A stretch of DNA of 27,188 nucleotides, from contig CAXHAT010000104.1 of NCBI GenBank assembly GCA_964014485.1, positions 1 through 27,188 on the forward strand, in the 5' to 3' direction. Below the pieces are notes generated by a model. It saw nothing but the letters and a program-made list of their open reading frames with translations. It did no database searches and was not told where the DNA came from. Positions within the stretch are counted from its first letter, which is position 1, and each line of letters starts with the position of its first letter. The translations under genes were made by a program, and so were the position numbers. This document shows positions 1,336 through 23,915 of the stretch, one piece after another. The DNA comes from an uncultured Deferribacteres bacterium. Its GTDB lineage: Bacteria > Zhuqueibacterota > Zhuqueibacteria > Zhuqueibacterales > Geothermadaptataceae.

Positions 1336-2223
1336 TCACGAATTTTCTTTATTCCTTCGTCGATTTGAAATGTCCTGAAGTTGCTTTTTCTCTCGCGACG
1401 TCAGGCTTTCCATCCCGCTGCTATTGATCTTGTCCAGGATTTTGTTCAGCAGTTCTTCCTCTTGTCGTTCCTTTTCTTCAGCGCTTTTGGTTAGGCGCAT
1501 CCTCTTTTGCAAAGCCTCAAAATTTTGTGCATCCGTCACCTTGCGCTGAGACCTGGCAGGCTTTTCTCCGCTGAGGTAGAGCGGCTTTTTGTACAAATAA
1601 ATAAGAATCGCAATAGAGCCGCCCATAATGAGGGCGTACAATCCCGGGCTGGCGACGATGATTCCAGGGTGAAAAAGCGTCGTCACGGCAAGCCCGACAA
1701 TCGCGCCGCCGAGATGAGAATCGTGGCCGATATTGCCGACTTGTCGACGCATTGCCCAAAACGACCCGGCGATGAAAAGAATGGCGTAAATGCTGGCGGG
1801 AATCGGGATAGGCAGCGGGAAAAGGTAAATACTCATGCCCGGATGAAGAAAAATGGCGGCGAAAATCACCCCGCAAACGCCGCCGGAAGCGCCAAGCGCA
1901 CGGTATTCGTAATGGCGATGCAGGTAGAGCGCGAGCAGGCTGCCGCCCAAAATGCTCGAAAAATAAATCACGCCCAGCAAGAACCAACCCGCGCCGCCGC
2001 TTTTTTCAATCGCTTCGCCGAAGACGAACAAACTGAACATGTTAAAAAACAGATGCAGCCAGTCAGCATGAACGAAGCCGCTTGTCAAAAGACGGCTGTA
2101 TTCTTTCTCGCGAAAAATGCGTTCGGTGGAAAACACGCATCTTTCCATAATGCCGGGGTTTTTAAATCCCTGCCACGAAATGTAGACTGTTACAGCAACA
2201 ATTGTGAGCGTAAGAAGCGCCAT
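1336..2223 (-). CDS. Rhomboid family intramembrane serine protease with C-terminal DUF6576-like helical domain
   Basis: HADWLHLFFNM, catalytic GASGG and HLGGA motifs, about 6-7 TM helices. Tail LNKILDKINSSGMESLTSREKKQL. ATG at 2223 overlaps the upstream stop (TGATG). Confidence 0.93.
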   Translation of the reverse strand: MALLTLTIVAVTVYISWQGFKNPGIMERCVFSTERIFREKEYSRLLTSGFVHADWLHLFFNMFSLFVFGEAIEKSGGAGWFLLGVIYFSSILGGSLLALYLHRHYEYRALGASGGVCGVIFAAIFLHPGMSIYLFPLPIPIPASIYAILFIAGSFWAMRRQVGNIGHDSHLGGAIVGLAVTTLFHPGIIVASPGLYALIMGGSIAILIYLYKKPLYLSGEKPARSQRKVTDAQNFEALQKRMRLTKSAEEKERQEEELLNKILDKINSSGMESLTSREKKQLQDISNRRRNKENS

Positions 2224-3812
2224 CAATCAGATCTTTTCTTATGAAGTTTGAGCGTTCTGCCCGCCAATTCACCGGTAAATTCTTCGTCCAGCATCGCGGC
2301 GCGCCCGTTGACAAAAACATGCACGACGCCTTCCGACAATTGGTACGGTTCGGTAAAAGTGGCGCGGTCGCGCAATCGTTCCAAGTCAAAAACTACAATG
2401 TCCGCAAAAGCGCCTGAACGCAGAACGCCGCGATCAGCCAAACGGAAAACTTGCGCCGGCAGGCTCGTCATGCTGCGAATCGCGGCGGCCAGACTGACGA
2501 CGCCTTCTTCGACAACGTACTTCCTGATCTTTCGCGGAAACGCGCCAAACGCACGCGGGTGCGGCGAACCGACGCCCCATTTTGGCTGCCTGCCGTCCGA
2601 CGAGGTCATCATCCACGGCTGCGTCATAAGAGTACGGACGTCATCGTCATGCATATTGAATGAGACAATGCCAGGCTCGCCTTGTTGAAACATTTTCACA
2701 GCAGTTTCTATTGGCGTCATTTTGCGTTCAGCAGCGACTTCGCTCAAAAGCCGTCCTTCCACAGACTGGTCTTCGGCAAAATAGCGAAATTGAATGCGAT
2801 CCGGACCACCGCGACGAGCAAGGTTTTCCTTCATCGCAGCCAGAATTTCACGCAAAGCATTTTGATTTTGCAGCCGCGCCGTCAGGGAGTCGCGCCCTCC
2901 CGCTTGCGCCCAGCGAGGCAGCAACGCAGCCGCGAGGCTGGTTGCCGAAGCAGTATAAGGATATTGATCCGCATAAATTTGCAATCCCTCATCTCGCGCA
3001 CGTTCGATTCGCCGTACAAGCGCCTGAGAAAAGCCCCAAACAGGAGGGCCTAACGTTTTAATATGGGTGATCACGCCTGGAAGGTTTGCTTCGCGCGAAA
3101 TTTGGATAACCTCATCCACCGCGGCAACGACGCCGATCGTGTAATTCGACTCATCGCGAATATGGCTTGTATAAGCGCCGCCAAACTGTGCCGCGATTTT
3201 GGCGAGAGCGACGAGTTCCGCTGTGTCTGAATAGCTCCCAGGCGCGTAAAAAGGCCCGCTTGAAAGCCCAAAGCCGCCGTCCAGCATGCCTTGGCGAACG
3301 AGCGCTTTCATGCTCTCAAGCTCATCAGGATTCGCGAGACGATTCGCCATGCCCAGCACCTGTCGTCGGACGCCGCCATGAGGAACAAGCTGGGCGGCGT
3401 TTACGCCCAAGCCGTCTTTTAGCAAATCCTTTTGTTGTTCGGCCAAATCAACCGGGCCGCCGCCGTCGGGATTAATGAAAACAGTTGTTACGCCTTGTGT
3501 CAGCAGACCATGAGCGCGGCTGCGATCAGGTGAAGCCAATCCGTCTGCAGCGTGTGAATGGCTGTCTATAAAACCGGGCGCAATGTAGAGATCATTGGCG
3601 TCGATTTCGCGCTGACCTTTTACGTCGTGTAAATCGCCGATTGCAACAATCCGATCTCCTTGAACGGCTATATCTCCCCGGAACCACGGATTTCCGGAGC
3701 CGTCGAGAACCCGGCCGTTTCGGATGATAATGTCAAATTGGTTTTGCGCTAAGGCGGGCAGGCTCATCACCAAAATAGTGGCGAACGAAGGCAATTTTCG
3801 AAGAAAGCTCAT
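2223..3812 (-). CDS. N-acyl-D-amino-acid deacylase (D-aminoacylase) family amidohydrolase with signal peptide
   Basis: DIIIRNGRVLDGSGNP, PGFIDSHSH, SHIRDE, ADQYPY, SDG and HPRAFGAFPR motifs. N-terminal Sec signal ending ALA|Q. Confidence 0.92.
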   Translation of the reverse strand: MSFLRKLPSFATILVMSLPALAQNQFDIIIRNGRVLDGSGNPWFRGDIAVQGDRIVAIGDLHDVKGQREIDANDLYIAPGFIDSHSHAADGLASPDRSRAHGLLTQGVTTVFINPDGGGPVDLAEQQKDLLKDGLGVNAAQLVPHGGVRRQVLGMANRLANPDELESMKALVRQGMLDGGFGLSSGPFYAPGSYSDTAELVALAKIAAQFGGAYTSHIRDESNYTIGVVAAVDEVIQISREANLPGVITHIKTLGPPVWGFSQALVRRIERARDEGLQIYADQYPYTASATSLAAALLPRWAQAGGRDSLTARLQNQNALREILAAMKENLARRGGPDRIQFRYFAEDQSVEGRLLSEVAAERKMTPIETAVKMFQQGEPGIVSFNMHDDDVRTLMTQPWMMTSSDGRQPKWGVGSPHPRAFGAFPRKIRKYVVEEGVVSLAAAIRSMTSLPAQVFRLADRGVLRSGAFADIVVFDLERLRDRATFTEPYQLSEGVVHVFVNGRAAMLDEEFTGELAGRTLKLHKKRSD

Positions 3813-3949: not shown

Positions 3950-5551
3950 TCAATTTTTCTCAAGCATAGCCATCTCTCTTTCCAATTTGTAGATTCTCCC
4001 CATAATTCGAAGGCACACCCTCAGGTTTGAAAACAGCGTTTTGGCTAGCGACGCCCATTTAGCGAACGCGCTGTTTAGAAGTGCTGACAAAATCAAAGCG
4101 CAGAGCCGAGCCGCGAGGCAAAAACGCTCGGCGTCAAGGCGCAAGAACGCGACAAGTCTGTCCCCGGATTTCAAGTCCGCTCTTGTTGAATAGCCAACAA
4201 CGACGTCGCCGTCAATCGATACTTTCACAAAAGCTGTTTTTTCTTCGTTTTTAAGAACCGATCCATCCAGCGTTGCAAAAGCTTTGACAATCACTTTCAC
4301 GGCTTTCTTGACCACATCAAAAGCGCGCTGTACACAATTGAAAAAGAAACGGGCGATGTTTTGCGCCAAATCCAAAATCGAGTCGACGGCTTTACGAAAA
4401 AGTCTGCCGATCCATCGCAGAACGCGCTTGACGCCGTCCCAAATGCGCAGGTGCAGCTTGCGGCCTTTCTGCAAGGCGTTTTCGAGCTGGGCTTGATCGG
4501 TCAGCCTGTTTTCCAACTCTTCTCGTGAACTCTCATCTTCTTCCGCCTCCGCCGCTTCATGCAGCGCAATAAAAAAGCCGGGCGTCAGCTTCTTATTCCA
4601 CTTATTCTTCGATTTGCCGGAGAGCTTTGCGAAGTCTTCCAGGCATTTTTTCAACTCTTTTGAGCGCGAGATTTCACCGCTTCTGTCAAACCCGTGAAGA
4701 GGGTAAGAATATTTTCTTAGCAGATTGATTTCGTATCCCATTAGCCAAAACTCGATTTGGGTCAGGCGTATGAGGAAGGCGCGAACCTCCTGCTTGTGAG
4801 ACCAACTCTCAAAAATTGGTCTGTAGCTAAAAAATCGTTTTCCGTTTTTTACTTTGTTGGCTTTCGCGGCGGCAGCGATAAGGCGATCCTGATCCAGCAG
4901 CAACGACAGATATTTTTCATTCGGACGAGCGTTTCTTAAGAATGCGCGTATTTCCGACTCCGGCGTTTCAATCGCTCCCAACGCCATGGCGATAAGCAAA
5001 AACTTGCGCAAGGCTTCGAGCTCGACGCCTTGAAAATCCTTGCCAGGCCTTCTCGAACTTAAGCCAAGAACAAACAATCGGCATTGGGCGGCGCGCAAAA
5101 TCGCACGGAATTTTTCCGGCGCTTTCAGCCATTCCTTGTCCAACTCGTCGCATTCGAAGCTGACGAGATTGTGCAAGGCGTTCCAAGTCAGCACGCCCGG
5201 CCACCTGTCGACTTTTAACTTCATCTCTTTTTGAAACAATTCAACGGCGTCCAGAACGGCGCCGCGATTGTCTTTGAACGCCGCACGCGCCTCTTTTTTG
5301 TCAGCCGCTTCAAGGTAACCCAGAAGCCAAAGGCGCTCAGCGATAACCTGCCCTCGACGGTTAAACGGCATGTTTTCAGAAGCTTCCGGGCTGTCCGGCA
5401 AGGCTTCCATTAGCGGCAGATCGCCATTGACCGGCGTTTCAGCAGCTGAGAGAAGCTGATCAAATTTTGCGTACTGTTCCAAAGCATCCGCCGACCGCCA
5501 GGTATTTGGATCGCCGAGATTGTCCGGATAGGCAGGCAAAGTCCCGCTCAT
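3950..5551 (-). CDS. Hypothetical protein with N-terminal peptidoglycan-binding-like (PG_binding_1) domain(s) and amphipathic/hydrophobic C-terminus
   Basis: aa ~66-130 ERLWLLGYL...DAVELFQKEMKLKVDRWPGVLTWNAL fits the PG_binding_1 pattern (L..LGY...AV..FQ...L.VDG..G..T..AL). ATGA overlap with the upstream gene. Confidence 0.75.
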   Translation of the reverse strand: MSGTLPAYPDNLGDPNTWRSADALEQYAKFDQLLSAAETPVNGDLPLMEALPDSPEASENMPFNRRGQVIAERLWLLGYLEAADKKEARAAFKDNRGAVLDAVELFQKEMKLKVDRWPGVLTWNALHNLVSFECDELDKEWLKAPEKFRAILRAAQCRLFVLGLSSRRPGKDFQGVELEALRKFLLIAMALGAIETPESEIRAFLRNARPNEKYLSLLLDQDRLIAAAAKANKVKNGKRFFSYRPIFESWSHKQEVRAFLIRLTQIEFWLMGYEINLLRKYSYPLHGFDRSGEISRSKELKKCLEDFAKLSGKSKNKWNKKLTPGFFIALHEAAEAEEDESSREELENRLTDQAQLENALQKGRKLHLRIWDGVKRVLRWIGRLFRKAVDSILDLAQNIARFFFNCVQRAFDVVKKAVKVIVKAFATLDGSVLKNEEKTAFVKVSIDGDVVVGYSTRADLKSGDRLVAFLRLDAERFCLAARLCALILSALLNSAFAKWASLAKTLFSNLRVCLRIMGRIYKLEREMAMLEKN

Positions 5552-5886
5552 TTTATCAAGCCTTTGAACATTTCAACCAATCCCTGCCTGTGCCGCAAAC
5601 CGGCTGCGACGGCTTCTTTGTGAATCGTGACCACCTGGTCCGTCGCCAAGTCCGTGTCGATAAAATTGAGCGAGTCGCCGTCGAACTTTATTGTCGTATC
5701 GAGCACCAGCTTAAGGTTCGCGTTTGCTGCATCGTCTCCGTCGGGCTTGAGCAATGCTTCCAAATTTTCCAAGCTTTTGGTTTGCAAGACGGCGGTCACG
5801 TCTCCAGAAACTGTTTGCACTCTCAATTCAGACAAATCTTTGATTTCTTCACCAATGGCTTTAATGGCGTTTGTCAGGTTACTCAT
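5548..5886 (-). CDS. Hypothetical 112-aa protein (DGD beta-hairpin motif, C-terminal amphipathic helix)
   Basis: Strong RBS AAGGAG 7 nt before ATG. Stop overlaps the next start (ATGA). Protein-like composition. Confidence 0.85.
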   Translation of the reverse strand: MSNLTNAIKAIGEEIKDLSELRVQTVSGDVTAVLQTKSLENLEALLKPDGDDAANANLKLVLDTTIKFDGDSLNFIDTDLATDQVVTIHKEAVAAGLRHRQGLVEMFKGLIK

Positions 5887-6148
5887 TTACGTTCTCCTTA
5901 TGATTTATGAGTTTAGAAATGATATTGATCCAGGATGAGATCGTCTGAGACGGTTTGCGGATTCGCGGCGTCTGACTTTCAAGCTTCGTTTCCACTTCGT
6001 TGATCGCCTCTTCCCGCTCTAAATCGCCCCCTTGCCTGATGATATTTTGAATTTCTTCTTTGCTCGCCTTTGAAAAAAGCTTCGCCTTTAAATGTGATTC
6101 GGTGGTGAGGATTTCGTACAGACGATACGCCGCTGACCTTAGCGCCAT
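5879..6148 (-). CDS. Hypothetical ~89-aa helical protein, first gene of 3-gene operon
   Basis: ATG at 6148 (alternative TTG at 6172). Stop overlaps the start of the 112-aa gene (ATGAGTAA). Lies just downstream of a candidate promoter. Confidence 0.55.
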   Translation of the reverse strand: MALRSAAYRLYEILTTESHLKAKLFSKASKEEIQNIIRQGGDLEREEAINEVETKLESQTPRIRKPSQTISSWINIISKLINHKENVNE

Positions 6149-6201
6149 GCTTTCAACCCCGTCTTCAGGCAAGAATTATTACGGAATTTTGTGTTTCTCA
6201 A

Positions 6202-6229
6202 AAAATAGAATTATAGCGGAGCTTGTCAA
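6202..6229 (-). promoter_or_regulatory. Candidate sigma70-type promoter for the 3-gene operon
   Basis: Minus strand TTGACA (6229-6224)-N16-TATTTT (6207-6202). A perfect TATAAT also lies within the spacer (6215-6210). Confidence 0.45.
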
Positions 6230-9667: not shown

Positions 9668-12600
9668 CTAATTCCCGCGAATGCTGATGTTCACGTTGAT
9701 CCCGAATTCCTTGATGGACACGTCTCCGGCAATTGTGGATGACGTTTTCCCCACTTCGAAGAACGTCCCGCCTTTAACGCGGTTGCTAAAGCTGTAGGTT
9801 ACGCTCGGCTTAAACGTCCAGCGCGACGTCTCCTGCGAAACGACGTACTTGTTCTCTTCGCCGCTGACGTTTTGTTCGGTCACGGTTTTGTTCATGTTAA
9901 AATTCACTGAAAAATCGATGCTGTTATTCAGCTTTTTCTTGCTCAAGAATGGCAGTGGAATTTTAAAGCCGGAGCGCTTGCTGTAAGTTGTTGTAAATTG
10001 AATATCTTGCTGGCGTTGGCGTTGACCGGACGCGATGGCGATGCGCATAAAAATATCGTCTTCGTAAATCGGATTCAATCGGTTGTTAAATCCGGTTGTT
10101 TTGTTGATTTGCACGTTCGTCACCATGCCGTTTTTCCAGTTCATGCTGACGCGGATGAGCGGGCGGAAACTAAAGGAAAAATCCTGTTTTTGCTGGTTGA
10201 TAATCGTGTCTTCCCACGCGATGGTGTTTTTGCCGGAAAGATTGCTGCTGACCGTCATGCTTTTGGCGACCGGCTTGAAAATGGGAATCAATTTTTCCAG
10301 CCCGCTAACGCTTAGAGTGATTTCGGGAAAGGGAATCGGGTCGCCGTCACCGATTTGTATGGCCGATTTGGAGAAACTGCCGGATCGCCGACTGGTCAGA
10401 TTGTTTTGCTCGTCGCGAGTATAAGCCACCTTGAGATCGATGCCGCGAGAAAGCTGCCAGCCCGTGTCGAATCTAAGTGTTTTATTGCGCGCCTCAGTTG
10501 AAAGAATCCCGGTCAACGTCGTGTCAACAAGGCCGATTCCAGGATTCGTGGAGAATCCGAAAATGTAATTTCTGTCGATGGCGCCGAGAGAATCGAGACC
10601 GCTGTTGGTGTAATTATTTCCGTCCTGGTAGGTGATGCGGATATCGTTGATATCGCCAAGTTTGTTTTTGACGAACTTGAAAATCGAGCCCGGGCCAAAT
10701 CCGCCGCCTTTCTTTTTTTCTTCCTTTTTCTCTTCTTCTCCAGCCTGCTGACCCGGTTCGCTCGTCCGCCGCCTTGGCGTGTTCCTCCGACGACGCGCCG
10801 TCCCCGCACTGCTGCGCGTCGTGCGCCCTTTTTTAAAAAGCTGGGAGACGCGGACCGTCATGTTCGCGTTGATGTTGGTATTTGCGCCGACGTCTCTGCC
10901 GCGCTCCGGCTGAGCAATGTTGTTACGGTATCTGAAGCTCGAAGTGTAGCCAAATTTGTTTTGAATCCAGCTAACGATTTGCGGCGAATAATCGACTTTA
11001 AAATTTTGAGATTTGTCGCTGTCTTGAAATTCGCCGCTGAACAATCCCTGCCACTGACGTTCGCGGAAATCGCCTTTCCAGGTTTTGGCCAAACTTGCGG
11101 TGAGATTGTCGAAAACCTTGTGATTCAAATTGTAGCTGCGCGTAAGAAAATAGGTGTCGCTGTTGGTAACGGCGCCCTGCCGCGTTTCCTGGAACGATTT
11201 CGCTGAATTACCCTGCAACTTGCCGCTAAAAGAACTTGGCGTGTAGTAGAATCGCGTATTCGCCGCGTTTTTGATGAGAGGAATGCTCTTTAAAAACGTA
11301 AACGGCTTGAAGTAATTGTTGCGGCCAAAATTGAGACTGTAGTCAACATTTCCGCTCCAGTTTTCGCTGTTCGCCTCTTTGATGTTTTCGCTGGATCGCT
11401 CGTCGCGGGAGTGGCTCAGGCTGGCGCGAATGTTGTCGACAGTGTTCCGAATAAAGAAGTTTTTTGATTTCGTTCTTTTGCTCGCCGAAACGCTAAAGCC
11501 TTGCTTCGTCCCTAACGTTTGCGCCAACTGAATTTGCTCTAACGGCGTCGCTTCCGTGATTAAAATATCCTGACCGGGAAAACGTTTGGGCGTAGAACGC
11601 GTTTCCGCATAATTTACAGTCACCGGAATAGAAAGTCCCCAACTCGAAGGGAAAAATTTGTCCAGGCTCATGCTGCCGTTCACCGAATAATCACGACGAT
11701 TGTCCTGGTTGCGGTTAAACCGTTCCTGCACGTTGTGAAAATCCGCGTCCCGGCGATTGACCTCGGCGTTGACCTTGATAAAATCGGACAGCGACAAATC
11801 CATGCGTGCGCGCATGGCAATGCCTTTTTCTTTCTCAACCTGCGAAAGGCGCAACTCATTGAGCCAGACTTCGCCGTTGAAATTGTCGAAATCCGTGTGG
11901 CCGTTGCGCTCATTGCGCAAGTGCTCGACGCCAAGCGTCAGCAGGCGAATGTTGGTAATTGAAGGCCGTCCCTTGATGCGATACCATTGCGTCGGGTTGG
12001 CCTGGTATTCAAAAAACTCCGGGGCGCTCGGCGTGCCGAGGGAATCGATGTAGGCGACGTATGCCGAGTCGAATTTCAGATTGGTCAACTGCGCAAGATC
12101 GATGTCCATTTCATTTTTGCCGTCCCACGCCAGACTGTCTGAGCTCTCGCCGCCGAAAACCAATTCGCGAAATTCGTAATAATCGTCTTCATTCGAACCA
12201 AAACGCAGAAAGAACACCATGTCGCTCTTGGTCGTGTCTTCATCTACCGCTTCTTGTTCTGAGGTTGGTTGAATATGGCGCTTGTCCGGCGAACGGTCAA
12301 TGGCGTGAACAAACATCCGCATCCGCTTGTAGTGAATATAGTCCTGCGGCGTAAAAAACGACTTTCTCGCCGTAACCTGGCCGCCAGGCTCAAGATCGTT
12401 GACTTGTAAAACCAACGCTTGCTCTCTCGCACGCGCCTGGGTAATTCGATCGATGACGCCGCTGACGCCAGGCGGCTGGATGTAAACTTCGGCGTTTTCA
12501 TGCGTATTGAGCACAGTCACGGCCAAGCGCGTATCTTCGCGATCCGTCTCTTGCCATTCGCTGCCGACCAGACTTATGTCCGCAATCGAAATGACGACTG

Positions 12601-15600
12601 AATCTTCATTGGCGACCCCGTCAATCCAGATTCTCGCATATTCAATCGAGTTCAGCCGAGGATCGCCGACTTTTTCCATAAAATCAAACAGTGGAATGCG
12701 AAACAAGCGCCAGCCGTTTTCGCCGCCGCGAACATAGCGCTGCTCATCTTCAAAACTGGCGAGGTCAAAAGTGTATTCGAAATAGTTGTTGACGAAATCA
12801 GTCGTTCTGTTGCCGTTCAAGTCTTCCGAATCCGGCAAGCGAATGCCGTCATTCGAGCTGTTTTCCGTGCCGTTGATAAAATTGTAGAAATTCCGCGTTT
12901 CCACCGAACGGTCGTCGTACCGCCAGTTATCATTGCTAAACGGCTCCCAGTCTTGCTTCACGCCGTCATTGTTAATGTCCCAGAAATCGCCGCCCGCCGC
13001 GATGGCTCTTGGATCATTGTCCGCCATTTGATCCAGGCCCCGATCTTCATTGACAATTGTGCCGTCATCCAACTCCAAATCGAGATCGAGATTGCCGTTT
13101 CGAAAGCCGTTGAGCGCAAAATCTTCAGTGTCGTATTCGTCGTTTGGAATGACGTCTTCGGAGACTTGGCCGAGATCGACATGCACCACGCCCTTGTCGC
13201 CGCGCACCATAACTTCAATAAACTTGCTTTCCGTCTGGTCAAAAAAACCGGAAGATAAGCCGCGCATAATGCCGCCCCAAGAGTCAGGTTGCCCGTTCTT
13301 CGGCTTAAAAACCATGGTCAGAATATCGGTCACCTGCGCCGTTTGCGCCGTCACTTCCTGATTTGGATAGATCGAGCGAATCGGCACGCCGCCAAACGGA
13401 TTGAACCAGTAAAGCTCTCCCATATTTTGCACGCTCTGGCCGTAAAGCGGATCTTGACGGCTGGAACCTAACTGGTACTGAACCGGAACGGAAGCCAACG
13501 TCCAGCCCTTCCGCTGAATGCCAAGAGGCGTCGTACGCTTGCCGCCTTCAAAATCATCGATGTAAGCGACGCCGTCGTTATCACCGGTGTCTTTATTATT
13601 CAATGTGTTGGGGTTCGGAAGAATTTGCGCAATTTCACCTTCAAATTTCAAGCTCGAAGGCTGCGTCGCATCAATGAAGGGCAGGGCGTCGACGGCTCGT
13701 GTCAGGAAATTCGGCGTAAAATTAAGCGCCGTGTTGACGTCCCAGATCATGTTTCGGATCGGCCCGCTGCCGACGCGAATTTTTTGATCTAACGTTCGTT
13801 CGTTCAAGTAGAGAAAGGTCGCGCCAACGAAAGAATTCTGGTTGATTTGATAGCGTGCGTTGGTTCCGAGAATCGTCTTTTTCTGCAATTGAAAAAGCTG
13901 ATTGCGCTCGTAGGTAATATCGAGTCCTGCGTTCTGCCCTTTGGCTTCCTCGTTCAAAATCGTCAGCGTTCCAGACCAATAATCGATCGTATAATCCGCA
14001 CCGCGCACAAGTTCTCGCCCGTTCAAACGGACTTCTTCGGAGTTCTCGATGACGTTAAAACCAAGCTGGTAGGTCGAACTCGCGCTGGAAGAGGTCACCT
14101 CAATCGAAAACTTCGAGGCTTCGCTGATTTCAGTCTGCAAAGTGCTGGTGTAAATTCTTTCCAGATCAGTGTAAGCGGGAATATCATCGTCAAAATGCGA
14201 GGTCAAAACATTCTGATTATTAACCCGAACCGTGTCTCGCGCAAAAGGTCGTAAAAAAGGTAAAATCAATTCGCCGCGCTCAAGGTTGACGATTCCCTCA
14301 AGCTCGATTTTCCCGTCAGGCTGCGGGTCGCCAGTCACATTGTCGCGGATATCAATCCCAAAAATTTCGAGATATGTTTTTGGGCCTTTGCTTTCCTGAG
14401 CGGTCTGCGAACCGACGGCATTGAGTAAAATTCTGATTTCCAGACCGTCTTCAGTCAAGCGCGTGCCGCCGAGATCATAGACGTTTTTCCATTCCAAATT
14501 CCAGGTGATAAACGTCGGCAAGGGCTGCTGCGCCTTAATCAACTTTAGCCGAATCGGTTCGCCGCTGGTTGGATTGTAATTGACGTCCCCGTCCCCGCCC
14601 CCGGCGGCGTCGCGATAAGCCACCGCCAGCACGTCTCCCTGATTGACCGGCGTGCGCATCCGCAAATACCCCAGAATCGGGAACAGCGTATAATCGACGT
14701 CCGGCTCTAAACGGCGAAAAACGCCTTTGTAGAATTCGCGCGTATTTCCCTCGCCGTTGTCGTTGATCGGATCCGGTGAAGCAATACCGTCAAATGTCTC
14801 GCCGGTGCGCTGGGCGCCCGGGGTGGAGATATAAACGACAATATCCCGAATATCCGGCACCGAGCTTTGGTGCTGCCATTCAAAACGGTAATCGCGCCAA
14901 TTTTCACGGTAAGAATAATCGAGAAAAAAGTAGGTGTTTCTTTTGTATCGATGGTCGGGGATGAGATCAGTATTGCTCGTTGAGCCTGCGTCCACAGTCA
15001 GGCGCTCGCTTTCGCCCTTTTCCTGACTGGCAATCGTGGTGAATTGCAGGTCGCCAAGCTGGGCGTCCATTTTCAGCCCGAAAAGCCCGGCGCTTTTGCC
15101 GCCAAAGGTGACGAAACGCGTTCCAGGCAGCGAGAGCGAGACGCTCCCGGCTTCGATGCTTTGGATAACTTCGTCTTCGAAGCCTTTGTAGTTGAGCTTG
15201 ATATTATTTTCAAATTCGAGCTGACGCTCGGAGTCCTGATCCACGTTGACGGTTACTTTTTCACCAATCTTACCAGTCACTGTAAACCGCTGCTGCTGGT
15301 TCATTTTAAAATTGGTGTTCGACCCTTGCGCCAGCGAGGTGCGCTGCTCACTGCGATTTTCGTTGCGAAAACCGCCGTCAATGCGAATTTCCCCTTGCAC
15401 GTTCAGGCCGACTTTATCGCCGCCAAAAATCCTTTGGAACGCCTGGTTTTTGATTTCTACCGGCAGCTCAATGTTCAGCCCTCCTGAGCCGCTTCGTCTG
15501 CGGGCTGCTGCGCTGAAATTTCTTGTGACCCCTTCCCGCCAAGCTTTTTGCAGGGTGTACTCAGTGAAAAAGTCGCGGTATTCTTGCAGCGTCACGATGC

Positions 15601-15952
15601 GCATCGGGCGAACGTGGTTACCCATGAAAGTCTCGTTCGCAACAACAAACTGGCCTGTTGAATCGACCGATACTTTGTGCACCCAATTGCGAAAGCCTCT
15701 TTTACCCAGAAACCCGGCCAGACCTTCTGCTGTCAACCCTTGATAGCCGAGTTCAGCTTCCGTGAGAAGGCTTGCTCGCGGGTCAGGAACGACGATTTGT
15801 AGACCTGCGCCGTTATTCGCGGTAACCTTGTTGCCGATTTGGGCCCAAGCAGGTTTTATAAACCCGAGAAGAACCAACAGCGCAACGCAGCGCGAGGCGT
15901 TTATAAAATTATGCAAAGAGAACTTGGAGTTTAAGAAGATGGAGTTGTTCAT
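9668..15952 (-). CDS. sprA: Type IX secretion system outer-membrane translocon SprA/Sov
   Basis: 2094 aa with signal peptide. Motifs VTGKIGEK...DSER..EFEN.IKL.Y.G.EDE.IQSIEAG.VS..LP, GLFG.K, AYIDDFEG, DSEDLNGN, WRLFRIPL, GEVWLNELRL. Long C-terminal beta-barrel of alternating strands. Confidence 0.93.
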   Translation of the reverse strand: MNNSIFLNSKFSLHNFINASRCVALLVLLGFIKPAWAQIGNKVTANNGAGLQIVVPDPRASLLTEAELGYQGLTAEGLAGFLGKRGFRNWVHKVSVDSTGQFVVANETFMGNHVRPMRIVTLQEYRDFFTEYTLQKAWREGVTRNFSAAARRRSGSGGLNIELPVEIKNQAFQRIFGGDKVGLNVQGEIRIDGGFRNENRSEQRTSLAQGSNTNFKMNQQQRFTVTGKIGEKVTVNVDQDSERQLEFENNIKLNYKGFEDEVIQSIEAGSVSLSLPGTRFVTFGGKSAGLFGLKMDAQLGDLQFTTIASQEKGESERLTVDAGSTSNTDLIPDHRYKRNTYFFLDYSYRENWRDYRFEWQHQSSVPDIRDIVVYISTPGAQRTGETFDGIASPDPINDNGEGNTREFYKGVFRRLEPDVDYTLFPILGYLRMRTPVNQGDVLAVAYRDAAGGGDGDVNYNPTSGEPIRLKLIKAQQPLPTFITWNLEWKNVYDLGGTRLTEDGLEIRILLNAVGSQTAQESKGPKTYLEIFGIDIRDNVTGDPQPDGKIELEGIVNLERGELILPFLRPFARDTVRVNNQNVLTSHFDDDIPAYTDLERIYTSTLQTEISEASKFSIEVTSSSASSTYQLGFNVIENSEEVRLNGRELVRGADYTIDYWSGTLTILNEEAKGQNAGLDITYERNQLFQLQKKTILGTNARYQINQNSFVGATFLYLNERTLDQKIRVGSGPIRNMIWDVNTALNFTPNFLTRAVDALPFIDATQPSSLKFEGEIAQILPNPNTLNNKDTGDNDGVAYIDDFEGGKRTTPLGIQRKGWTLASVPVQYQLGSSRQDPLYGQSVQNMGELYWFNPFGGVPIRSIYPNQEVTAQTAQVTDILTMVFKPKNGQPDSWGGIMRGLSSGFFDQTESKFIEVMVRGDKGVVHVDLGQVSEDVIPNDEYDTEDFALNGFRNGNLDLDLELDDGTIVNEDRGLDQMADNDPRAIAAGGDFWDINNDGVKQDWEPFSNDNWRYDDRSVETRNFYNFINGTENSSNDGIRLPDSEDLNGNRTTDFVNNYFEYTFDLASFEDEQRYVRGGENGWRLFRIPLFDFMEKVGDPRLNSIEYARIWIDGVANEDSVVISIADISLVGSEWQETDREDTRLAVTVLNTHENAEVYIQPPGVSGVIDRITQARAREQALVLQVNDLEPGGQVTARKSFFTPQDYIHYKRMRMFVHAIDRSPDKRHIQPTSEQEAVDEDTTKSDMVFFLRFGSNEDDYYEFRELVFGGESSDSLAWDGKNEMDIDLAQLTNLKFDSAYVAYIDSLGTPSAPEFFEYQANPTQWYRIKGRPSITNIRLLTLGVEHLRNERNGHTDFDNFNGEVWLNELRLSQVEKEKGIAMRARMDLSLSDFIKVNAEVNRRDADFHNVQERFNRNQDNRRDYSVNGSMSLDKFFPSSWGLSIPVTVNYAETRSTPKRFPGQDILITEATPLEQIQLAQTLGTKQGFSVSASKRTKSKNFFIRNTVDNIRASLSHSRDERSSENIKEANSENWSGNVDYSLNFGRNNYFKPFTFLKSIPLIKNAANTRFYYTPSSFSGKLQGNSAKSFQETRQGAVTNSDTYFLTRSYNLNHKVFDNLTASLAKTWKGDFRERQWQGLFSGEFQDSDKSQNFKVDYSPQIVSWIQNKFGYTSSFRYRNNIAQPERGRDVGANTNINANMTVRVSQLFKKGRTTRSSAGTARRRRNTPRRRTSEPGQQAGEEEKKEEKKKGGGFGPGSIFKFVKNKLGDINDIRITYQDGNNYTNSGLDSLGAIDRNYIFGFSTNPGIGLVDTTLTGILSTEARNKTLRFDTGWQLSRGIDLKVAYTRDEQNNLTSRRSGSFSKSAIQIGDGDPIPFPEITLSVSGLEKLIPIFKPVAKSMTVSSNLSGKNTIAWEDTIINQQKQDFSFSFRPLIRVSMNWKNGMVTNVQINKTTGFNNRLNPIYEDDIFMRIAIASGQRQRQQDIQFTTTYSKRSGFKIPLPFLSKKKLNNSIDFSVNFNMNKTVTEQNVSGEENKYVVSQETSRWTFKPSVTYSFSNRVKGGTFFEVGKTSSTIAGDVSIKEFGINVNISIRGN

Positions 15953-19119: not shown

Positions 19120-20628
19120 ATGACAAACCCTGCCAGCCCTCAAACGACTCAAAACAAAACGTCTCTCACTCGCCAACTCGGCCTCATGGGGTTAGCCGCC
19201 ACCGGCATTTGCTCCATGCTTGGCGCCGCCATCAACGTTATTCCGATCATGATTCAACGCAGCGTTCCCGGCGTCGGACCGTATGTTCTGCCCGCTTATC
19301 TTTTTGGCGCCATTCCCGCAATTCTGGCCGCGTTAGCCTACGCCATGCTCGCTTCAGCCATGCCGCGCGCGGGCGGGAGCTACATCTACGCCAGCCGTTC
19401 TCTCAGCCCATACCTCGGATTTGTCGCCAGTTTTTCGCAATGGTTTGGACTCAGTATCGCCATTGGCGTGGTCTCCTACGTGCTCGTGCCGTTTCTGCGA
19501 GACGTCGCGGAACCGTTGGGCTTGCATGGATTGGCGCAAGCGTTGGACACAGGCTTTGTTCGCGTCAGCGTGGCGTTAGGATTTCTCTGGTTTTTTGCTT
19601 TTGTCAACATGCGCAGTCTGAAACTCTACGAGCGCACGCTTGTACCGATGATGTTCATCATGTTTGCCCTCGGCGCCATCGTCATTGTTGCGGGATTCTC
19701 GTTTAACCAGCAAGAATTCGCCGCCGCCGTACTTGAACGCGACGGTCAGCCCATTCCGACGATGGAGACGCCGCCCTTCCGATTCGGCGTTTTCTTCGCA
19801 GCGTCCGCACTGCTTTTTTCCAGTTTTATTGGATTTGATTCAATTGCGCAAGCTGGGGGTGAGGCGAAGAATCCGAATCGAACCTTGCCGATAGCCATCG
19901 GAATCGCGGTCGTGACGGTCGGGACGTTTTACATGCTGTTCACCGCCGCCGTTTATAACACCGTGCCGTGGCAATTCGTCGCCGAACAGGCGCAAACGCG
20001 CGATTTGACGGCCCCGGGACTTTTGGGCTACTTGCTCTCGCCCGGCTGGACCGTCGCCATTGTCGCGGGGGCGGCGATTGCGTTGATTAACGATCTTCCG
20101 GCCATGCTGCTGGCGGTCTCGCGGCTCATGTTCGCCTGGGCGGAAGACGGCGTTTTCCCACGCCGCGTCGCGGCGATCAACAAGAAATCGCATACGCCGA
20201 ACGTTGCTATTATTTTGAGCGCAAGTATGGCTTCCGTCGGCATTTTGGGCAGCCATTTCGCCGGAGATTTTTTCCTGGGCGTGGATATTCTCGTGACCTC
20301 CATGCTGGTCAATTTTCTGCTCATGTGCGTTTCTGTTCTCGCCCTGCCCAAACGCAACCCCGAGATCGCCAAAGACGTGCGCGTCATTCCTTCGCGCAAA
20401 CTGCAAATCCCGCTGGCGTCGCTTGGTATTCTCATTTTGGGCGGTTTTCTCGTGGTGCACATTTGGAAAGATCTTTCCGCCGAAATGAGCGCATGGTACT
20501 TCCACTCCACGCCGCTCTGGATCGCCGTCATGGGCCTCGCGTCGATCATCTATTTTCGCGAAAAGCAGCAATTGAAAAAATCAGGCGTGGACTTAAAGAA
20601 GCAATTTTCCACCCTCCCCCCGGAGTAA
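19120..20628 (+). CDS. APC family amino acid permease
   Basis: About 12 TM helices. L.RQLG, MPRAGGSYIY, FIGFDSIAQAGGEAKNPNR, SRLMFAWAEDG.FP, TP.VAI motifs. Confidence 0.93.
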   Translation: MTNPASPQTTQNKTSLTRQLGLMGLAATGICSMLGAAINVIPIMIQRSVPGVGPYVLPAYLFGAIPAILAALAYAMLASAMPRAGGSYIYASRSLSPYLGFVASFSQWFGLSIAIGVVSYVLVPFLRDVAEPLGLHGLAQALDTGFVRVSVALGFLWFFAFVNMRSLKLYERTLVPMMFIMFALGAIVIVAGFSFNQQEFAAAVLERDGQPIPTMETPPFRFGVFFAASALLFSSFIGFDSIAQAGGEAKNPNRTLPIAIGIAVVTVGTFYMLFTAAVYNTVPWQFVAEQAQTRDLTAPGLLGYLLSPGWTVAIVAGAAIALINDLPAMLLAVSRLMFAWAEDGVFPRRVAAINKKSHTPNVAIILSASMASVGILGSHFAGDFFLGVDILVTSMLVNFLLMCVSVLALPKRNPEIAKDVRVIPSRKLQIPLASLGILILGGFLVVHIWKDLSAEMSAWYFHSTPLWIAVMGLASIIYFREKQQLKKSGVDLKKQFSTLPPE

Positions 20629-20634
20629 CCGCAG

Positions 20635-20666
20635 GCCGGATTAAGCGACAGCGAATCCGGCTTTTT
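20635..20666 (+). terminator. Intrinsic terminator of the permease; left copy of the 31-bp inverted repeat flanking the RM gene
   Basis: GCCGGATT-AAGCGACAGCG-AATCCGGC-TTTTT, 6 nt after the permease stop. Confidence 0.8.
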
Positions 20667-20817
20667 GCGTTCCCTTTTCATCTTTCTGCTCGCCCCTTTT
20701 CAACAAGGCAAAATAAATTATTGACATAACCTTTCCGCACATCCCGCATCTCATTCCTGTGATGATAATTGCATAAAAACTCCTTCGGGGCAATTAAACA
20801 TCTTTTGGGCGTGCATC

Positions 20818-23800
20818 ATGGTTAGTTTTAATCTCAAACCTCACCACAAGCCTGTTCGAGAATACTACACTTTATTAAAAACGCTTGATCGAAAAGACTT
20901 GCAAGCAGAAGGTCAAGTGGCGCCTGCTTTCGCGACTCTATTGCGACATTGCGGTAAAAAGCTTGATTGGACTTTGGCGGAGCAGTTCTCGTTTCCCTCC
21001 AAAGATCGAACTTTGAGGCTTGATGGAGCGCTGCTGGATCAATTCAATATGGTTCGAGGCGTTTGGGAAGCAAAGGACGTTTTCGATAACCTTAATCTGG
21101 CCATAGAAGAGAAGTTCAAAACCGGTTACCCAAGAGAAAACATAATTTTTCAAACGCCAAAGCATGCGGTCATTTGGCAGAATGGTCGAGAGGTCTGGGA
21201 CAGAAGTCTTGCTAAACCAACGCGGCTTGTTGAAGCCCTCGAAATATTTTTCAGCTATGAAGCTCCGCAACAAAAGGAATGGGAGCGTGCAGTTGAAAAA
21301 TTCAAAAGCAAGATTCCTGAATTAGGCTCGCGGCTTCTTGAAAAAATTGAGACTGAAGCAAAAGAGAACAGCACGTTTTCGGAAGCTTTGGAATATTTCA
21401 CTCAGCTTTGCCGCGACAGCCTCAATCCAAATCTTTCATATAAGGCCGTCGAGGAAATGCTCATTCAGCACTTATTGACTGAGCGCATTTTTCGCCGCGT
21501 TTTTGATAATCCTGATTTTGTAAAACGCAATATTATCGCCCAGGAAATCGAAAAAGTCATCGCCGCTTTAACTTCTCGGGCTTTCAATCGCAACGAATTC
21601 TTGCAAGAACTCGATCCCTTTTACACTGTTCTTGAAAAGACGGCGCGTACTATCCATGACTTCTCGTTAAAACAGAGTTTTCTTAACACGGTCTACGAAA
21701 AGTTCTTTCAGGGCTTTTCTATAAGAGTCGCTGATACACATGGCATTGTTTACACGCCGCAACCGATTGTCAATTTCATGGTGCGCTCTGTTGATGAGAT
21801 TTTGATAAAGGAGTTTGGTCGTTCTCTCTCAGACAAAGGGGTGCATATCTTGGAGCCGTTTGTCGGTACCGGCAACTTTGTCATTAACATTATGCGTCAA
21901 ATAAAAAAGACTGCTTTGGAGTACAAATTTGCGGAGGAATTGCATTGCAATGAAATCATGCTTCTGCCGTACTATATCTCTTCGATGAACATTGAGCATG
22001 AATACTACAAAGCAACGGGAAAATATAAAGCTTTTGAAGGCATTTGCCTGGTCGATACTTTTGAATTGGCGGAAGGTCGACAAGAACGTTTTGATTTTAT
22101 GAACGCAGAAAACTCAAAACGGGTTAATAAGCAGCAAAAGACGCCGATCTTTGTCGTTATCGGCAATCCGCCTTACAATGTTGGACAAGCCAATGAGAAC
22201 GACAATAACAAAAACCGCAAATACGATGTCATAGATCAGCGCGTCCGGGAGACATATTCAAGAGCTTCAAAGGCAACGAACAAGAATGCTCTTTCTGACG
22301 TCTACGTAAAAGCGTTTCGCTGGGCGTCCGACCGTGTGTTGCGAAACGGTGAAGGCGTGGTGGCTTTTGTTTCCAACAATAGTTTTCTGAACGATTATGC
22401 TTTTGACGGGATGCGCAAATGCTTGGAGAAAGACTTTGATCGTATCTATATTTTGGACTTGGGCGGCAATGTTCGAAAAAACCCAAAACTTTCCGGAACG
22501 ACGCATAACGTTTTTGGCATTCAAGTCGGCGTAGGGATAAGTTTCTTGATAAAAAGCAAATCGCCTTCAAGCGAATGCAAGATTTTCTATTCAAGAGTTG
22601 ATGAATATTGGCGCAAGGTTGAGAAGTATGATTATCTCGATGAAAAGAGAGATTGGTCAGAGATAAGCTGGCGAGAAATTACTCCTGATTCCAAGCATAC
22701 GTGGCTCACTGACGGACTGAACCCGGAGTTCAATAATTTTTTGCCTTTGGGGACAAAAGATGAACCCGAAAATTCAATTTTTCATTTAGTAAGTAACGGC
22801 GTTAAGACAAATCGTGATTCATGGGTTTATAATTTTAATCGTACCGTTCTAGCTCAAAATATCAAGAGCTTTATCGAAACCTACAACAAGCAAGTTTACG
22901 AGTATTCACGAATCCGCCCGCATCCTCAAATCGATACCTTCGTGATTTCTGATGATACGAAAATAAAGTGGAGTAGAGACCTAAAACTGGATTTAAAACG
23001 GGGCAGAACGGCGGAATTTTCTGAAGCCAAGATTCGTCAATCGCTCTATCGCCCATTTACAAAAACGAATTTATTCTTTGATCCTATCTTGAATGAAGAA
23101 GTTTATCAATTTCCAAATATCTTGCCTACACAAAAAGTTCAATCCGAAAATCGAGTTATCTGTTTAAGTGGTGTTGGCAGTAGTAAACCATTTCAGACCC
23201 TTGTCGTCAATTTTCTTCCATGCTTGGATTTACTCGAAAAAACCCAATGCTTTCCGTACTATGTTTACAGTGAGAATGGAGGTAAACGATACGACAACAT
23301 CGACGATTTAGCGCTAAGGATGTTTAAAGCCCACTATAGCGACGCTCAGATCAACAAGTGGGAAATCTTCTACTACGTTTACGGTATTCTACAACACCCT
23401 CTCTATTGTGAAAAATATGCCGCAAACCTTCGGCGAGAACTCCCAAGAATTCCACTCGCGATAGATTTTTGGCAATTTAGCAAAACAGGCAAAGAATTGG
23501 CTGAATTGCACATTGGGTATGAAAATCAGTCCGAGCACAAGCTTGATTTCGTTGAAGCCGAGGATAAACCGCTGAATTGGCGCGTCGAAAAAATGAAGTT
23601 TTCAAAAGACAAAACAGCAATCATCTACAACGATTTTCTAACCTTGAAGGGAATTCCGCCTGAAACGTTTGATTATCGTCTCGGCACGCGCTCAGCATTA
23701 GAATGGATTGTCGATCAGTATCGAATTAAAACAGACAAACGCAGCGGCATCGTCAACGACCCCAACCGTAGCGATGATCCGCAATACATTGTTCGGCTAA

Positions 23801-23874: not shown

Positions 23875-23884
23875 ATGGTAACTC

Positions 23885-23915
23885 AAAAGCAGGATTCGCT
23901 GTCGCTTAATCCGGC
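23885..23915 (-). repeat. Right copy of the 31-bp inverted repeat; overlaps the kinase stop codon
   Basis: Reverse complement GCCGGATTAAGCGACAGCGAATCCTGCTTTT versus 20635-20665 GCCGGATTAAGCGACAGCGAATCCGGCTTTT (30/31). Confidence 0.9.

What the first reader, a model, noticed from the sequence alone, without database searches (positions are those of the whole stretch)
3950..6229. Candidate new system: coupled 3-gene operon (89 aa / 112 aa / 533 aa PG-binding-like, membrane-active-looking protein)
Seen: own candidate promoter, ATGAGTAA and ATGA overlaps, insertion between housekeeping SDR and D-aminoacylase genes, no signal peptides and no recognisable catalytic domain. The large protein combines PG_binding_1-like repeats with long basic amphipathic helices and a hydrophobic C-terminal helix. 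Inference: a multi-component envelope-targeting module, such as a bi/tripartite alpha-pore-forming toxin released by lysis or non-Sec export, an abortive-infection membrane effector, or a membrane-remodelling polymer. I recognise no named system with this layout. This is the best candidate for an undescribed system in the window.
Basis: partly seen in the sequence, partly recalled or inferred. Interest (0 to 1): 0.8.

Follow-up and report, generated by a model that had tools for sequence, protein, structure and literature searches.

The report
Peptidoglycan-binding protein with small clamp partner
A previously undescribed pair of genes, found side by side in many marine and sediment bacteria, encodes a cell-wall-binding protein with a hidden membrane-seeking tail and a small acidic partner predicted to cover that tail; it probably breaches the cell envelope on demand, but this is untested.

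Summary
Only two of the genes form a conserved unit. The 112-aa gene lies directly upstream of the 533-aa gene in 56 of 59 genome loci, and the 3 misses are cut or degenerate. It also does so in 47 of 61 metagenome loci, where the other 14 are cut. Starting from the 112-aa protein, 36 of 38 loci have the large gene next. The 89/97-aa ORF has no homologue.

The large protein has no signal peptide. It has three PG_binding_1-type repeats. Its C-terminal module has no convincing fold match, and contains a cationic amphipathic helix and the family's most hydrophobic helix. The acidic 112-aa protein is predicted to clamp this module (ipSAE 0.69, best control 0.00).

Pfam gives only PG_binding_1, in relatives; NCBIfam, PADLOC and PHROGs give no significant match. 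Twelve of 56 loci carry adjacent PG hydrolases, lipases or a protease, mostly without signal peptides. Two loci head a contractile-injection operon.

Best reading (about 0.4): a latent membrane-breaching, wall-gripping effector held in check by its partner. The function is untested.

The parts
3950..5551 (-). Large subunit, 533 aa, net charge +16, no signal peptide. Layout: N-terminal helices (1-48); PG_binding_1 repeat 1 (49-135, canonical); degenerate repeats 2 (136-232) and 3 (245-366); cationic amphipathic helix (369-392, with the invariant WDG..R motif); long helix 393-429; three-stranded beta-meander 432-454 with invariant D447/D449; long helix 460-492 carrying the hydrophobic stretch 477-495; helices 498-532.
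5548..5886 (-). Small partner, 112 aa, acidic (net -6). It has an N-terminal helix, a conserved strand (DLSxLxVQTxTG), an FDGD motif and a C-terminal helix with invariant H89 and R100. It is predicted to bind the C-terminal module of the large subunit.
   Evidence: It lies directly upstream of the large gene in 56 of 59, 47 of 61 and 36 of 38 loci. Alone it folds poorly, pLDDT 51. In the complex its pLDDT is 70-74, ipSAE 0.69 against 0.00 for controls. No Pfam family among 50 members. The family is acidic in 46 of 50 members.
5879..6172 (-). Upstream ORF (97 aa from TTG at 6172, 89 aa from ATG at 6148), overlapping the 112-aa start by 8 nt. It is lineage-specific and its membership in the module is unproven.
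   Evidence: No homologue but itself among 5.8 billion clusters. ORFs of 78-115 aa at the same position in 12 other loci (11 genome, 1 metagenome) form a hand-picked set that resembles the N-terminal half of the 112-aa family (hhalign Prob 95%, E 3e-8; reversed control Prob 0.1%). The window's ORF alone does not (Prob 0.5%).
6202..6229 (-). Promoter-like site (TTGACA, 16 nt, TATTTT) upstream of the small ORF.
   Evidence: Consensus scan, 10 of 12 matches. Not evidence of function.

Best explanation
This is a self-contained, translationally coupled two-gene module.

Anatomy. The large protein is made in the cytoplasm without a signal peptide. It combines three peptidoglycan-binding (PG_binding_1-type) repeats with a C-terminal module. 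That module has the hallmarks of a latent membrane-insertion device: a strongly cationic amphipathic helix, followed by a long helical hairpin whose second helix is the most hydrophobic stretch of the whole family. The small acidic protein is its obligate partner. In the predicted complex, the partner's strand extends the beta-meander at the tip of the hairpin, and its C-terminal helix lies along the hydrophobic helix. It also touches the N-terminal helix, so it clamps the protein in a closed, soluble state.

Proposed mechanism (inferred, not shown). On an unknown trigger the partner is lost. The amphipathic and hydrophobic helices then insert into the inner membrane from the cytoplasmic side and breach it. 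The PG-binding repeats gain access to the sacculus and grip it. In lineages where PG hydrolases or lipases without signal peptides are encoded next to the pair, these enzymes would use the same breach, which is the holin-endolysin logic. The outcome would be programmed permeabilisation or lysis of the producer. The purpose is open: release of cytoplasmic cargo such as contractile injection particles, or suicide on infection or damage.

Shown here: gene linkage, domain anatomy, a confident fold, and model support for binding. Inferred: membrane insertion, lethality, the trigger, and use by neighbouring enzymes.
For: Linkage. The mid gene lies directly upstream on the same strand in 56 of 59 genome loci. 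It does so in 47 of 61 metagenome loci; the other 14 have under 300 nt upstream. The reciprocal test gives 36 of 38. The gap between the two genes is <= 30 nt in 49 of 53 loci. All-against-all clustering of flanking ORFs finds no third family shared across lineages.

Binding. ipSAE was 0.68/0.69/0.70 in three runs, with the best of 3 controls at 0.00. Partner pLDDT was 70-74, and the runs agree in >= 90% of contacts. The mark was reached by 116 of 157 solved complexes and 2 of 215 mismatched pairs. The interface is large-protein residues 23-35 and 418-489 against partner residues 2-31 and 84-111. The partner alone folds poorly, pLDDT 51.

PG-binding repeats..

Latent membrane element. The most hydrophobic 19-residue window maps to reference positions 470-507 in 118 of 137 members. 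The median Kyte-Doolittle value is 1.76, and 104 of 137 reach >= 1.6. The strongest amphipathic helix is 369-392, with hydrophobic moment about 1.0 and net charge +5; the family median net charge there is +5.

No signal peptide in 137 members.

Neighbours (195 ORFs, the two nearest on each side of 56 loci). PGBD-CHAP in L008 and L040. PGBD-Amidase_2 plus PGBD-KAP NTPase in L030. GH108-PGBD in L035. PGBD-phage lysozyme in L050 and L058; L060 by homology only. Lipase_3 in L007. Patatin in L036, L049 and L054. Trypsin_2 in L006. That is 12 of 56 loci. Of the 12, the CHAP, GH108, lysozyme and patatin products (9) have no signal-peptide-like N-terminus; the trypsin has one, the Lipase_3 has a hydrophobic N-terminal stretch, and the L030 amidase is unclear.

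Contractile-injection genes. Sheath, tube, Pvc16 cap and AAA ATPase genes lie directly downstream in L038, and sheath, tube and one further gene in L064.
Against: No experiment or expression data exist, and no RNA run was listed.

The hydrophobic helix could simply be the buried core of a soluble helical domain. The AF2 model is compact (pTM 0.91), and a Kyte-Doolittle value of 1.8 is borderline for a transmembrane helix.

Most loci (44 of 56), including this window, have no lytic enzyme next to the pair. The enrichment was not tested against a background set.

No genome-level link to contractile injection systems was found. Pvc16_N occurs in 16 of 51 module genomes, against 9 of 50 unrelated environmental genomes (Fisher p 0.17) and 17 of 60 relatives without the module.

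The family was not found in phages: 0 of 50,697 records, and none in IMG/VR with two peptide patterns. Classical lysis cassettes come from phages.

The protein is far larger than any holin.

The complex used unpaired alignments of my own, so the calibration counts hold only roughly.
Confidence: 0.4

Rival explanations
1. Exported antibacterial or anti-eukaryotic effector with a dedicated chaperone. The large protein is a toxin that binds the target's wall and inserts into its membrane. The small acidic protein is a secretion chaperone that shields the hydrophobic helix until delivery by a contractile injection system, a T6SS or lysis.
For: The partner is small, acidic and encoded upstream, and it is predicted to cover the hydrophobic helix. 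The pair sits at the head of contractile-injection operons in L038 and L064. Neighbouring PG hydrolases and lipases without signal peptides resemble co-delivered effectors. Language-model features place the partner nearest to phage tail assembly chaperones, 0.92-0.93; this is a lead only.
Against: No secretion-system genes lie next to the pair in the other loci. There is no genome-level enrichment of Pvc16_N. No immunity-like gene is conserved. Length and architecture are uniform along the whole protein, without the swapped C-terminal toxin domains typical of polymorphic toxins.
Confidence: 0.2
2. Non-lethal envelope function: a cytoplasmic or membrane-peripheral sensor or scaffold. It would bind peptidoglycan precursors or recycled muropeptides through its repeats and dock on the inner membrane through its amphipathic helix, with the small protein as a regulatory subunit.
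For: It is synthesised in the cytoplasm with PG-binding repeats. Most neighbourhoods are housekeeping and are not defence islands. It is single-copy in its genome. R153 and R158 in repeat 2 are invariant and could bind carboxylates of a stem peptide; this last point is inference.
Against: The distribution is patchy, which is not what a core function predicts: not found in 9 of 9 same-family genomes, and only weak partial matches in 3 of 60 relatives. Lytic enzymes recur next to the pair. Toxin-antitoxin pairs lie nearby in 4 loci.
Confidence: 0.2
3. One reading: a three-component alpha-pore-forming toxin (ClyA/YaxAB-like) or a PspA/ESCRT-III-like membrane-remodelling polymer made of all three products.
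Confidence: 0.07

Closest known systems
PG_binding_1 (PF01471) domains of spore-cortex and phage lytic enzymes (SleB N-terminal domain 6tci; C. difficile 5tv7; L,D-transpeptidase 4lpq)
   Different: Here the domain is followed by two degenerate copies and is attached to no enzyme. The protein has no export signal, and the window's own copy is below Pfam's cut-off (14.2 against 23 bits).
Phage holin-endolysin (and holin-antiholin) lysis cassettes
   Same: The logic is the same: a cytoplasmically made membrane-breaching protein encoded beside signal-less PG hydrolases (7 of 56 loci), with a small protein that could hold it back.
   Different: The protein is 500-560 aa and largely soluble in the model, with at most one candidate membrane helix; holins are small integral membrane proteins (recalled). 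It was not found in 50,697 phage records. Most loci lack an endolysin. The partner is a soluble acidic protein, not an N-terminally extended holin.
Pore-forming colicin / Bcl-2-type 'inside-out' domains (recalled, not tested)
   Same: A hydrophobic helix is buried among amphipathic helices in a soluble form, which is a known way of storing a membrane-insertion element.
   Different: No such chain appeared in the fold searches. There is a beta-meander in the hairpin. A separate partner covers the helix.
Small acidic chaperones of secreted effectors and phage tail assembly chaperones
   Same: The size is about 110 aa, the charge is acidic, the gene lies directly upstream of its client, and it is predicted to cover a hydrophobic helical segment. 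ESM-feature neighbours include Phage_TAC_5, TAC_13 and TAC_1 clusters at 0.92-0.93.
   Different: No TAC family appears in Pfam scans of 50 members. The client is a compact globular protein, not an extended tape measure. No frameshift product was examined.

Membership tests
PG_binding_1 (PF01471) | Sequence match to the family profile above the curated cut-off | tested here: inconclusive
   The window protein scores E 0.053, 14.2 bits, against a cut-off of 23. However, 85 of 90 relatives match at E <= 0.01, the best at 2.2e-13, and the family profile hits PDB PG-binding domains at E 1.9e-6.
PG_binding_1 (PF01471) | Three-helix PG-binding fold | tested here: met
PG_binding_1 (PF01471) | Binding of peptidoglycan | not testable with these tools
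   This needs a sacculus pull-down or a muropeptide binding assay.
Holins | Small integral membrane protein with one or more transmembrane helices | tested here: not met
   The protein has 533 aa and a compact, mostly soluble model. There is one candidate hydrophobic helix, Kyte-Doolittle 1.82 over residues 477-495.
Holins | Encoded beside an endolysin in a lysis cassette | tested here: not met
   Not in this window. PG hydrolases are adjacent in 7 of 56 related loci. No phage record carries the family.
ClyA / YaxAB alpha-pore-forming toxins | Elongated helical-bundle fold with a beta-tongue or hydrophobic head, and paralogous large subunits | tested here: inconclusive
   No such chain is among the 50 listed VIA rows or the Foldseek rows. 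Whole-protein searches can miss single domains. The subunits here are not paralogous large proteins.
PspA / Vipp1 / ESCRT-III | ESCRT-III helical hairpin fold and a family profile match | tested here: inconclusive
Known anti-phage defence systems (PADLOC-DB 2.0) | Match of any component to a defence-system model | tested here: not met
   0 families for all three products at E <= 1. Only 8 of 149 neighbouring ORFs match at E <= 1e-10, mostly through generic helicase, ATPase or methylase domains.
Phage tail assembly chaperone / tape measure pair | Profile match to TAC families, and an extended helical tape-measure client | tested here: not met
   No TAC family among 50 members. The client is compact, pTM 0.91. 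Tape-measure rows in BFVD have E >= 0.14 and TM about 0.1. The only support is the ESM-feature lead.

The most novel reading that the evidence does not exclude
A bacterial, NOD-like 'wall-damage' suicide switch. The cytoplasmic PG-binding repeats would sense muropeptides that enter the cytoplasm when a phage, a lytic enzyme or an antibiotic damages the wall. Ligand binding would release the acidic clamp protein. The freed C-terminal module would then insert into the inner membrane and kill or lyse the cell. This would be a new class of two-component sensor-effector with a new membrane-active fold, recruited in some lineages to fire co-encoded signal-less hydrolases or to release contractile injection particles.
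Probability: 0.12. Interest if true: 0.85.

Novelty: new variant of a known kind. Interest (0 to 1): 0.66.

Why it matters
The pair is a widespread family: 275 clusters at 50% identity. It occurs in Gammaproteobacteria, Zetaproteobacteria, Bacteroidota, Desulfobacterota, Acidobacteriota, Verrucomicrobiota and other diderm phyla.

In the one annotated RefSeq record I looked at, both genes are 'hypothetical protein'. No Pfam, NCBIfam, PADLOC or PHROG family covers its C-terminal module or its partner.

About three quarters of the large protein is modelled with high confidence, yet it has no convincing fold match.

If the module breaches membranes, it would be a non-phage route to programmed lysis, and a way for signal-less wall hydrolases, lipases or injection particles to leave the cell. 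How such particles are released is, from memory, poorly understood in most species. If instead it senses wall fragments, it would be a new kind of intracellular sensor. Either way it is directly testable with two genes in a laboratory host.

Tried and rejected
Family libraries. Pfam, NCBIfam, PADLOC and PHROGs on the three products gave nothing significant.

Homology between the partner and the C-terminal module. hhalign aligned only the two DGD motifs, Prob 1.4%. Rejected as unsupported.

Phage or plasmid origin. 0 phage records; 0 IMG/VR contigs with two peptide patterns; 1 plasmid record, a 325-kb Fulvitalea replicon.

Genome-level link to contractile injection systems. Not supported. L064, which has injection-system genes adjacent, was among them.

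Shared downstream amidohydrolase. The window and L164 each have one, but the two are unrelated beyond the fold, so this is coincidence.

PGBD-neighbour enrichment test. A home-made repeat-1 HMM was too insensitive (3 hits against 0 in controls) and was discarded.

L053's 630-aa ORF. It looked like a domain swap, but it is a frame artefact or degenerate copy.

The 197-aa protein conserved upstream in 5 Bacteroidota loci. No Pfam family, no PDB relative and no likeness to the partner.

Expression. No RNA holder was listed.

Earlier findings of this scan. Nothing was held for this place, these sequences or these words.

Literature. Four full-text searches found no description of this pair. In two papers I read only passages found by term search, PMC7159879 and bioRxiv 10.1101/2025.01.14.632903, and they do not cover it.
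Full report
THE OBSERVATION

The minus strand carries three ORFs:
- 3950-5551, 533 aa
- 5548-5886, 112 aa
- 5879-6172, 97 aa from TTG, or 89 aa from the ATG at 6148

The junctions are ATGA (4-nt overlap) and ATGAGTAA (8-nt overlap), and an AAGGAG word precedes the 112-aa start. A sigma-70-like site lies at 6229-6202; the region has 5 such sites against 2.1 +/- 1.4 in shuffles, so this is weak. The flanks are an SDR and an Amidohydro_3 enzyme. Base composition across the block (GC 0.49-0.51) does not differ from the flanks.

WHICH GENES BELONG TOGETHER

The large protein. It has 10 relatives in the 90%-clustered collection. An exhaustive search gives 275 clusters at 50% identity with E <= 1e-3 (183 at <= 1e-10). 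Nearly all are 460-630 aa long and match along the whole length.

Loci in named genomes. An alignment of the first hits retrieved 59 loci. They come from Gamma- and Zetaproteobacteria, Bacteroidota, Desulfobacterota, Acidobacteriota, Verrucomicrobiota, Latescibacterota, Zixibacteria and others, mostly marine or sediment MAGs and isolates such as Kordia, Aureivirga, Alteromonas and Mariprofundus.

Co-occurrence, starting from the large gene. A profile of the 112-aa family finds its gene directly upstream on the same strand in 56 of these 59 loci. The three misses are two contigs cut at the large gene (L046, L047) and one degenerate copy (L053). In 61 metagenome loci it is there in 47; the other 14 all have fewer than 300 nt upstream.

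Co-occurrence, starting from the 112-aa protein. Of 38 loci, 36 have the large gene next. One contig ends too early and one match was not confirmed.

Spacing. The gap between the two genes is <= 30 nt in 49 of 53 loci and zero or negative in 20.

No third conserved gene. Clustering of all flanking ORFs shows no third family shared across lineages.

The 89/97-aa ORF has no homologue other than itself.

Small ORFs at the same position elsewhere. ORFs of 78-115 aa sit at the same position in 11 of the genome loci and 1 metagenome locus. I picked these by position and size and partly by eye, leaving out ones that looked spurious (L019, L036, L040, L044), so the set is biased.
- As a group they resemble the N-terminal half of the 112-aa family: hhalign Prob 95%, E 3e-8, same register. 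Without the window's row the value is Prob 94.9%; a reversed control gives Prob 0.1%.
- Two zetaproteobacterial ones reach Prob 77-78% on their own.
- The window's ORF alone does not: Prob 0.5% against the 112-aa family, and 3.7% against the small-ORF set.
A fast-evolving third gene is therefore possible in some proteobacteria but unproven here.

ANATOMY OF THE LARGE PROTEIN

Model. With a 137-row alignment, AlphaFold2 gives pLDDT 92.5 and pTM 0.91.

Further repeats. Profile-profile comparison of segments shows two further degenerate copies: repeat 1 against repeat 2, Prob 83%, E 1e-5; repeat 1 against repeat 3, Prob 92%, E 8.5e-7.

C-terminal module. It comprises the following elements:
- The most amphipathic helix of the protein, 369-392, with Eisenberg moment about 1.0 and net charge +5. 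The family median is also +5. It carries the invariant D372 and G373 and near-invariant W371, R376 and W380.
- A 37-residue helix.
- A three-stranded meander with D447 (near-invariant) and D449 (invariant).
- A 33-residue helix carrying the hydrophobic stretch.
- Two closing helices.
The most hydrophobic 19-residue window of 118 of 137 members maps to reference positions 470-507. The median Kyte-Doolittle value is 1.76, 104 of 137 reach >= 1.6, and the window's value is 1.82 at 477-495.

Signal peptide. No member has a signal-peptide-like hydrophobic run.

THE PARTNER

The 112-aa family has invariant D17, V23, G28, D69-G70-D71, H89 and R100. It matches no Pfam family in 50 members, and it is acidic in 46 of 50. 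Alone it folds poorly, pLDDT 51.

In the complex prediction its pLDDT is 70-74, and ipSAE is 0.68, 0.69 and 0.70 in three runs, against 0.00 for the best of three controls. That mark was reached by 116 of 157 solved complexes and 2 of 215 mismatched pairs. The counts hold only roughly because my own unpaired alignments were used.

The interface joins partner residues 2-31 and 84-111 to large-protein residues 418-489 and 23-35. In other words, the partner's strand pairs with the meander (residue 24 with 451), and its C-terminal helix lies along helix 467-481, which overlaps the hydrophobic stretch. The model supports binding; it does not show it.

Language-model features place the partner nearest to viral hypothetical proteins (0.94) and to phage tail assembly chaperones (0.92-0.93). 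This is a lead only.

CONTEXT

I scanned the two nearest ORFs on each side of 56 loci, 195 ORFs in all, against Pfam. Most are unrelated housekeeping genes. Twelve loci, however, have an adjacent envelope-degrading enzyme:
- PGBD-CHAP: L008, L040
- PGBD-Amidase_2 followed by PGBD-KAP NTPase: L030
- GH108-PGBD: L035
- PGBD-phage lysozyme: L050, L058, and L060 by homology only
- Lipase_3: L007
- Patatin: L036, L049, L054
- Trypsin_2: L006

The CHAP, GH108, lysozyme and patatin products have no signal-peptide-like N-terminus. The trypsin has one, the Lipase_3 has a hydrophobic N-terminal stretch, and the L030 amidase is unclear. Non-redundant metagenome loci add a patatin (L186) and a PGBD-M15 peptidase (L179).

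In two zetaproteobacterial loci the pair, preceded by a GerE-type regulator, heads a contractile-injection operon. L038 has sheath, tube, Pvc16 cap, AAA ATPase, CIS tube and tail-X genes. L064 has sheath, tube and one further gene shared with L038.

Toxin-antitoxin pairs lie nearby in four loci.

I could not test this enrichment against a background set. From general knowledge, signal-less PGBD hydrolases are rare outside prophages, so 7 of 56 looks high, but that is an inference.

Results against a simple story:
- PADLOC models hit only 8 of 149 neighbouring ORFs, mostly through generic domains, so there is no defence-island signal.
- Pvc16_N is no more frequent in module genomes (16 of 51) than in unrelated environmental genomes (9 of 50, p 0.17) or in relatives that lack the module (17 of 60).
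- The family is absent from 50,697 phage records and was not found in IMG/VR.

The tallies over relatives include genomes flagged as unpublished (G016, G023). They are used only as counts.

IN THE HOST

The pair is single-copy. It was not found in 9 of 9 genomes of the same family; among 60 relatives there were only weak partial PG-binding-domain matches in 3. In five same-family genomes the SDR is present, with the epimerase beside it in 3 of 5, but neither the module nor the amidohydrolase lies downstream. The block sits at a synteny break, and the distribution is patchy, as expected for horizontally moving accessory genes. DNA of the window is held by runs of one marine metagenome study, and no RNA run was listed.

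HOW IT MOST LIKELY WORKS

The anatomy is a PG-gripping N-terminal half and a C-terminal half that stores a cationic amphipathic helix and a hydrophobic helix in a soluble fold, with an obligate acidic partner predicted to cover exactly that helix. This is how latent membrane-active proteins are usually kept safe.

Because the protein is made without an export signal, its PG-binding repeats can reach the wall only after the inner membrane is breached, or else they bind cytoplasmic wall precursors or fragments. The recurrent signal-less hydrolases and lipases next to the pair face the same access problem.

I therefore favour a partner-restrained membrane-breaching and wall-gripping effector, used for programmed permeabilisation or lysis (confidence about 0.4). 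The trigger and the purpose are unknown.

COMPARISON AND NOVELTY

The only family membership that holds is PG_binding_1, for the first repeat. The module works like a holin-antiholin or effector-chaperone pair, but it meets none of the defining features of holins, ClyA/YaxAB, PspA/ESCRT-III, tail chaperone/tape measure pairs or any PADLOC system. RefSeq annotates both genes as hypothetical in the one record examined, and four full-text searches found no description.

I rate it a new variant of a known kind: a restrained membrane-active envelope effector, built from a new C-terminal module and a new partner family. The boldest reading that remains open is a cytoplasmic wall-fragment sensor coupled to a suicide effector.

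Noticed in passing
L038:1851-12676 and L064:174-8087: In two Zetaproteobacteria the pair, preceded by a GerE/LuxR-type regulator and (in L038) a small partner-like ORF, is the first gene pair of a contractile-injection operon. L038 has sheath, tube, Pvc16_N cap, AAA ATPase, CIS tube and tail-X genes. In L064 the large gene is broken into three frames.
   Followed up: partly
L030:5200-8607: Directly downstream of the pair lie a PG_binding_1-Amidase_2 protein and a PG_binding_1-KAP-family P-loop NTPase (798 aa; PADLOC PDC-S20/PifA/QatA-like at E 1e-23 to 1e-18). The NTPase begins with the PG-binding domain and has no signal-peptide-like N-terminus; the amidase's N-terminus is unclear.
   Followed up: no
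L021:6957-7547, L025:7046-7636, L027:7022-7633, L032:7047-7640, L034:7010-7615: Five Bacteroidota loci have a conserved 197-204-aa protein directly upstream of the pair, with no signal peptide and no Pfam or PDB relative. Its invariant H141...S156-x-G-C159 stretch reminded me of L,D-transpeptidase-type active sites (recalled, not tested).
   Followed up: partly
G000 contigs C12:1979-2539, C49:8081-8602, C117:3543-4076, C3:88275-88835: The window's own genome has four matches to the Pvc16_N cap domain of contractile injection systems, none of them on the window's contig.
   Followed up: no
window 20500-24000: GC falls to 0.39-0.43, against about 0.50-0.55 elsewhere, over a 1018-aa ORF (20818-23874, + strand). 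This may be a foreign gene.
   Followed up: no
window 9668-15952: A 2094-aa ORF lies on the minus strand. It was not examined.
   Followed up: no
window 1336-2226: A 296-aa hydrophobic ORF with a GASGG motif and later histidines looks like a rhomboid-type membrane protease. The label is recalled, not tested.
   Followed up: no
L019:6461-8317 and L048:9551-11839: In two Desulfobacterales loci a Lon_C-domain protease (with an AAA-lid or AAA domain) lies convergently, 14-48 nt after the large gene, and a GNAT acetyltransferase lies upstream.
   Followed up: no
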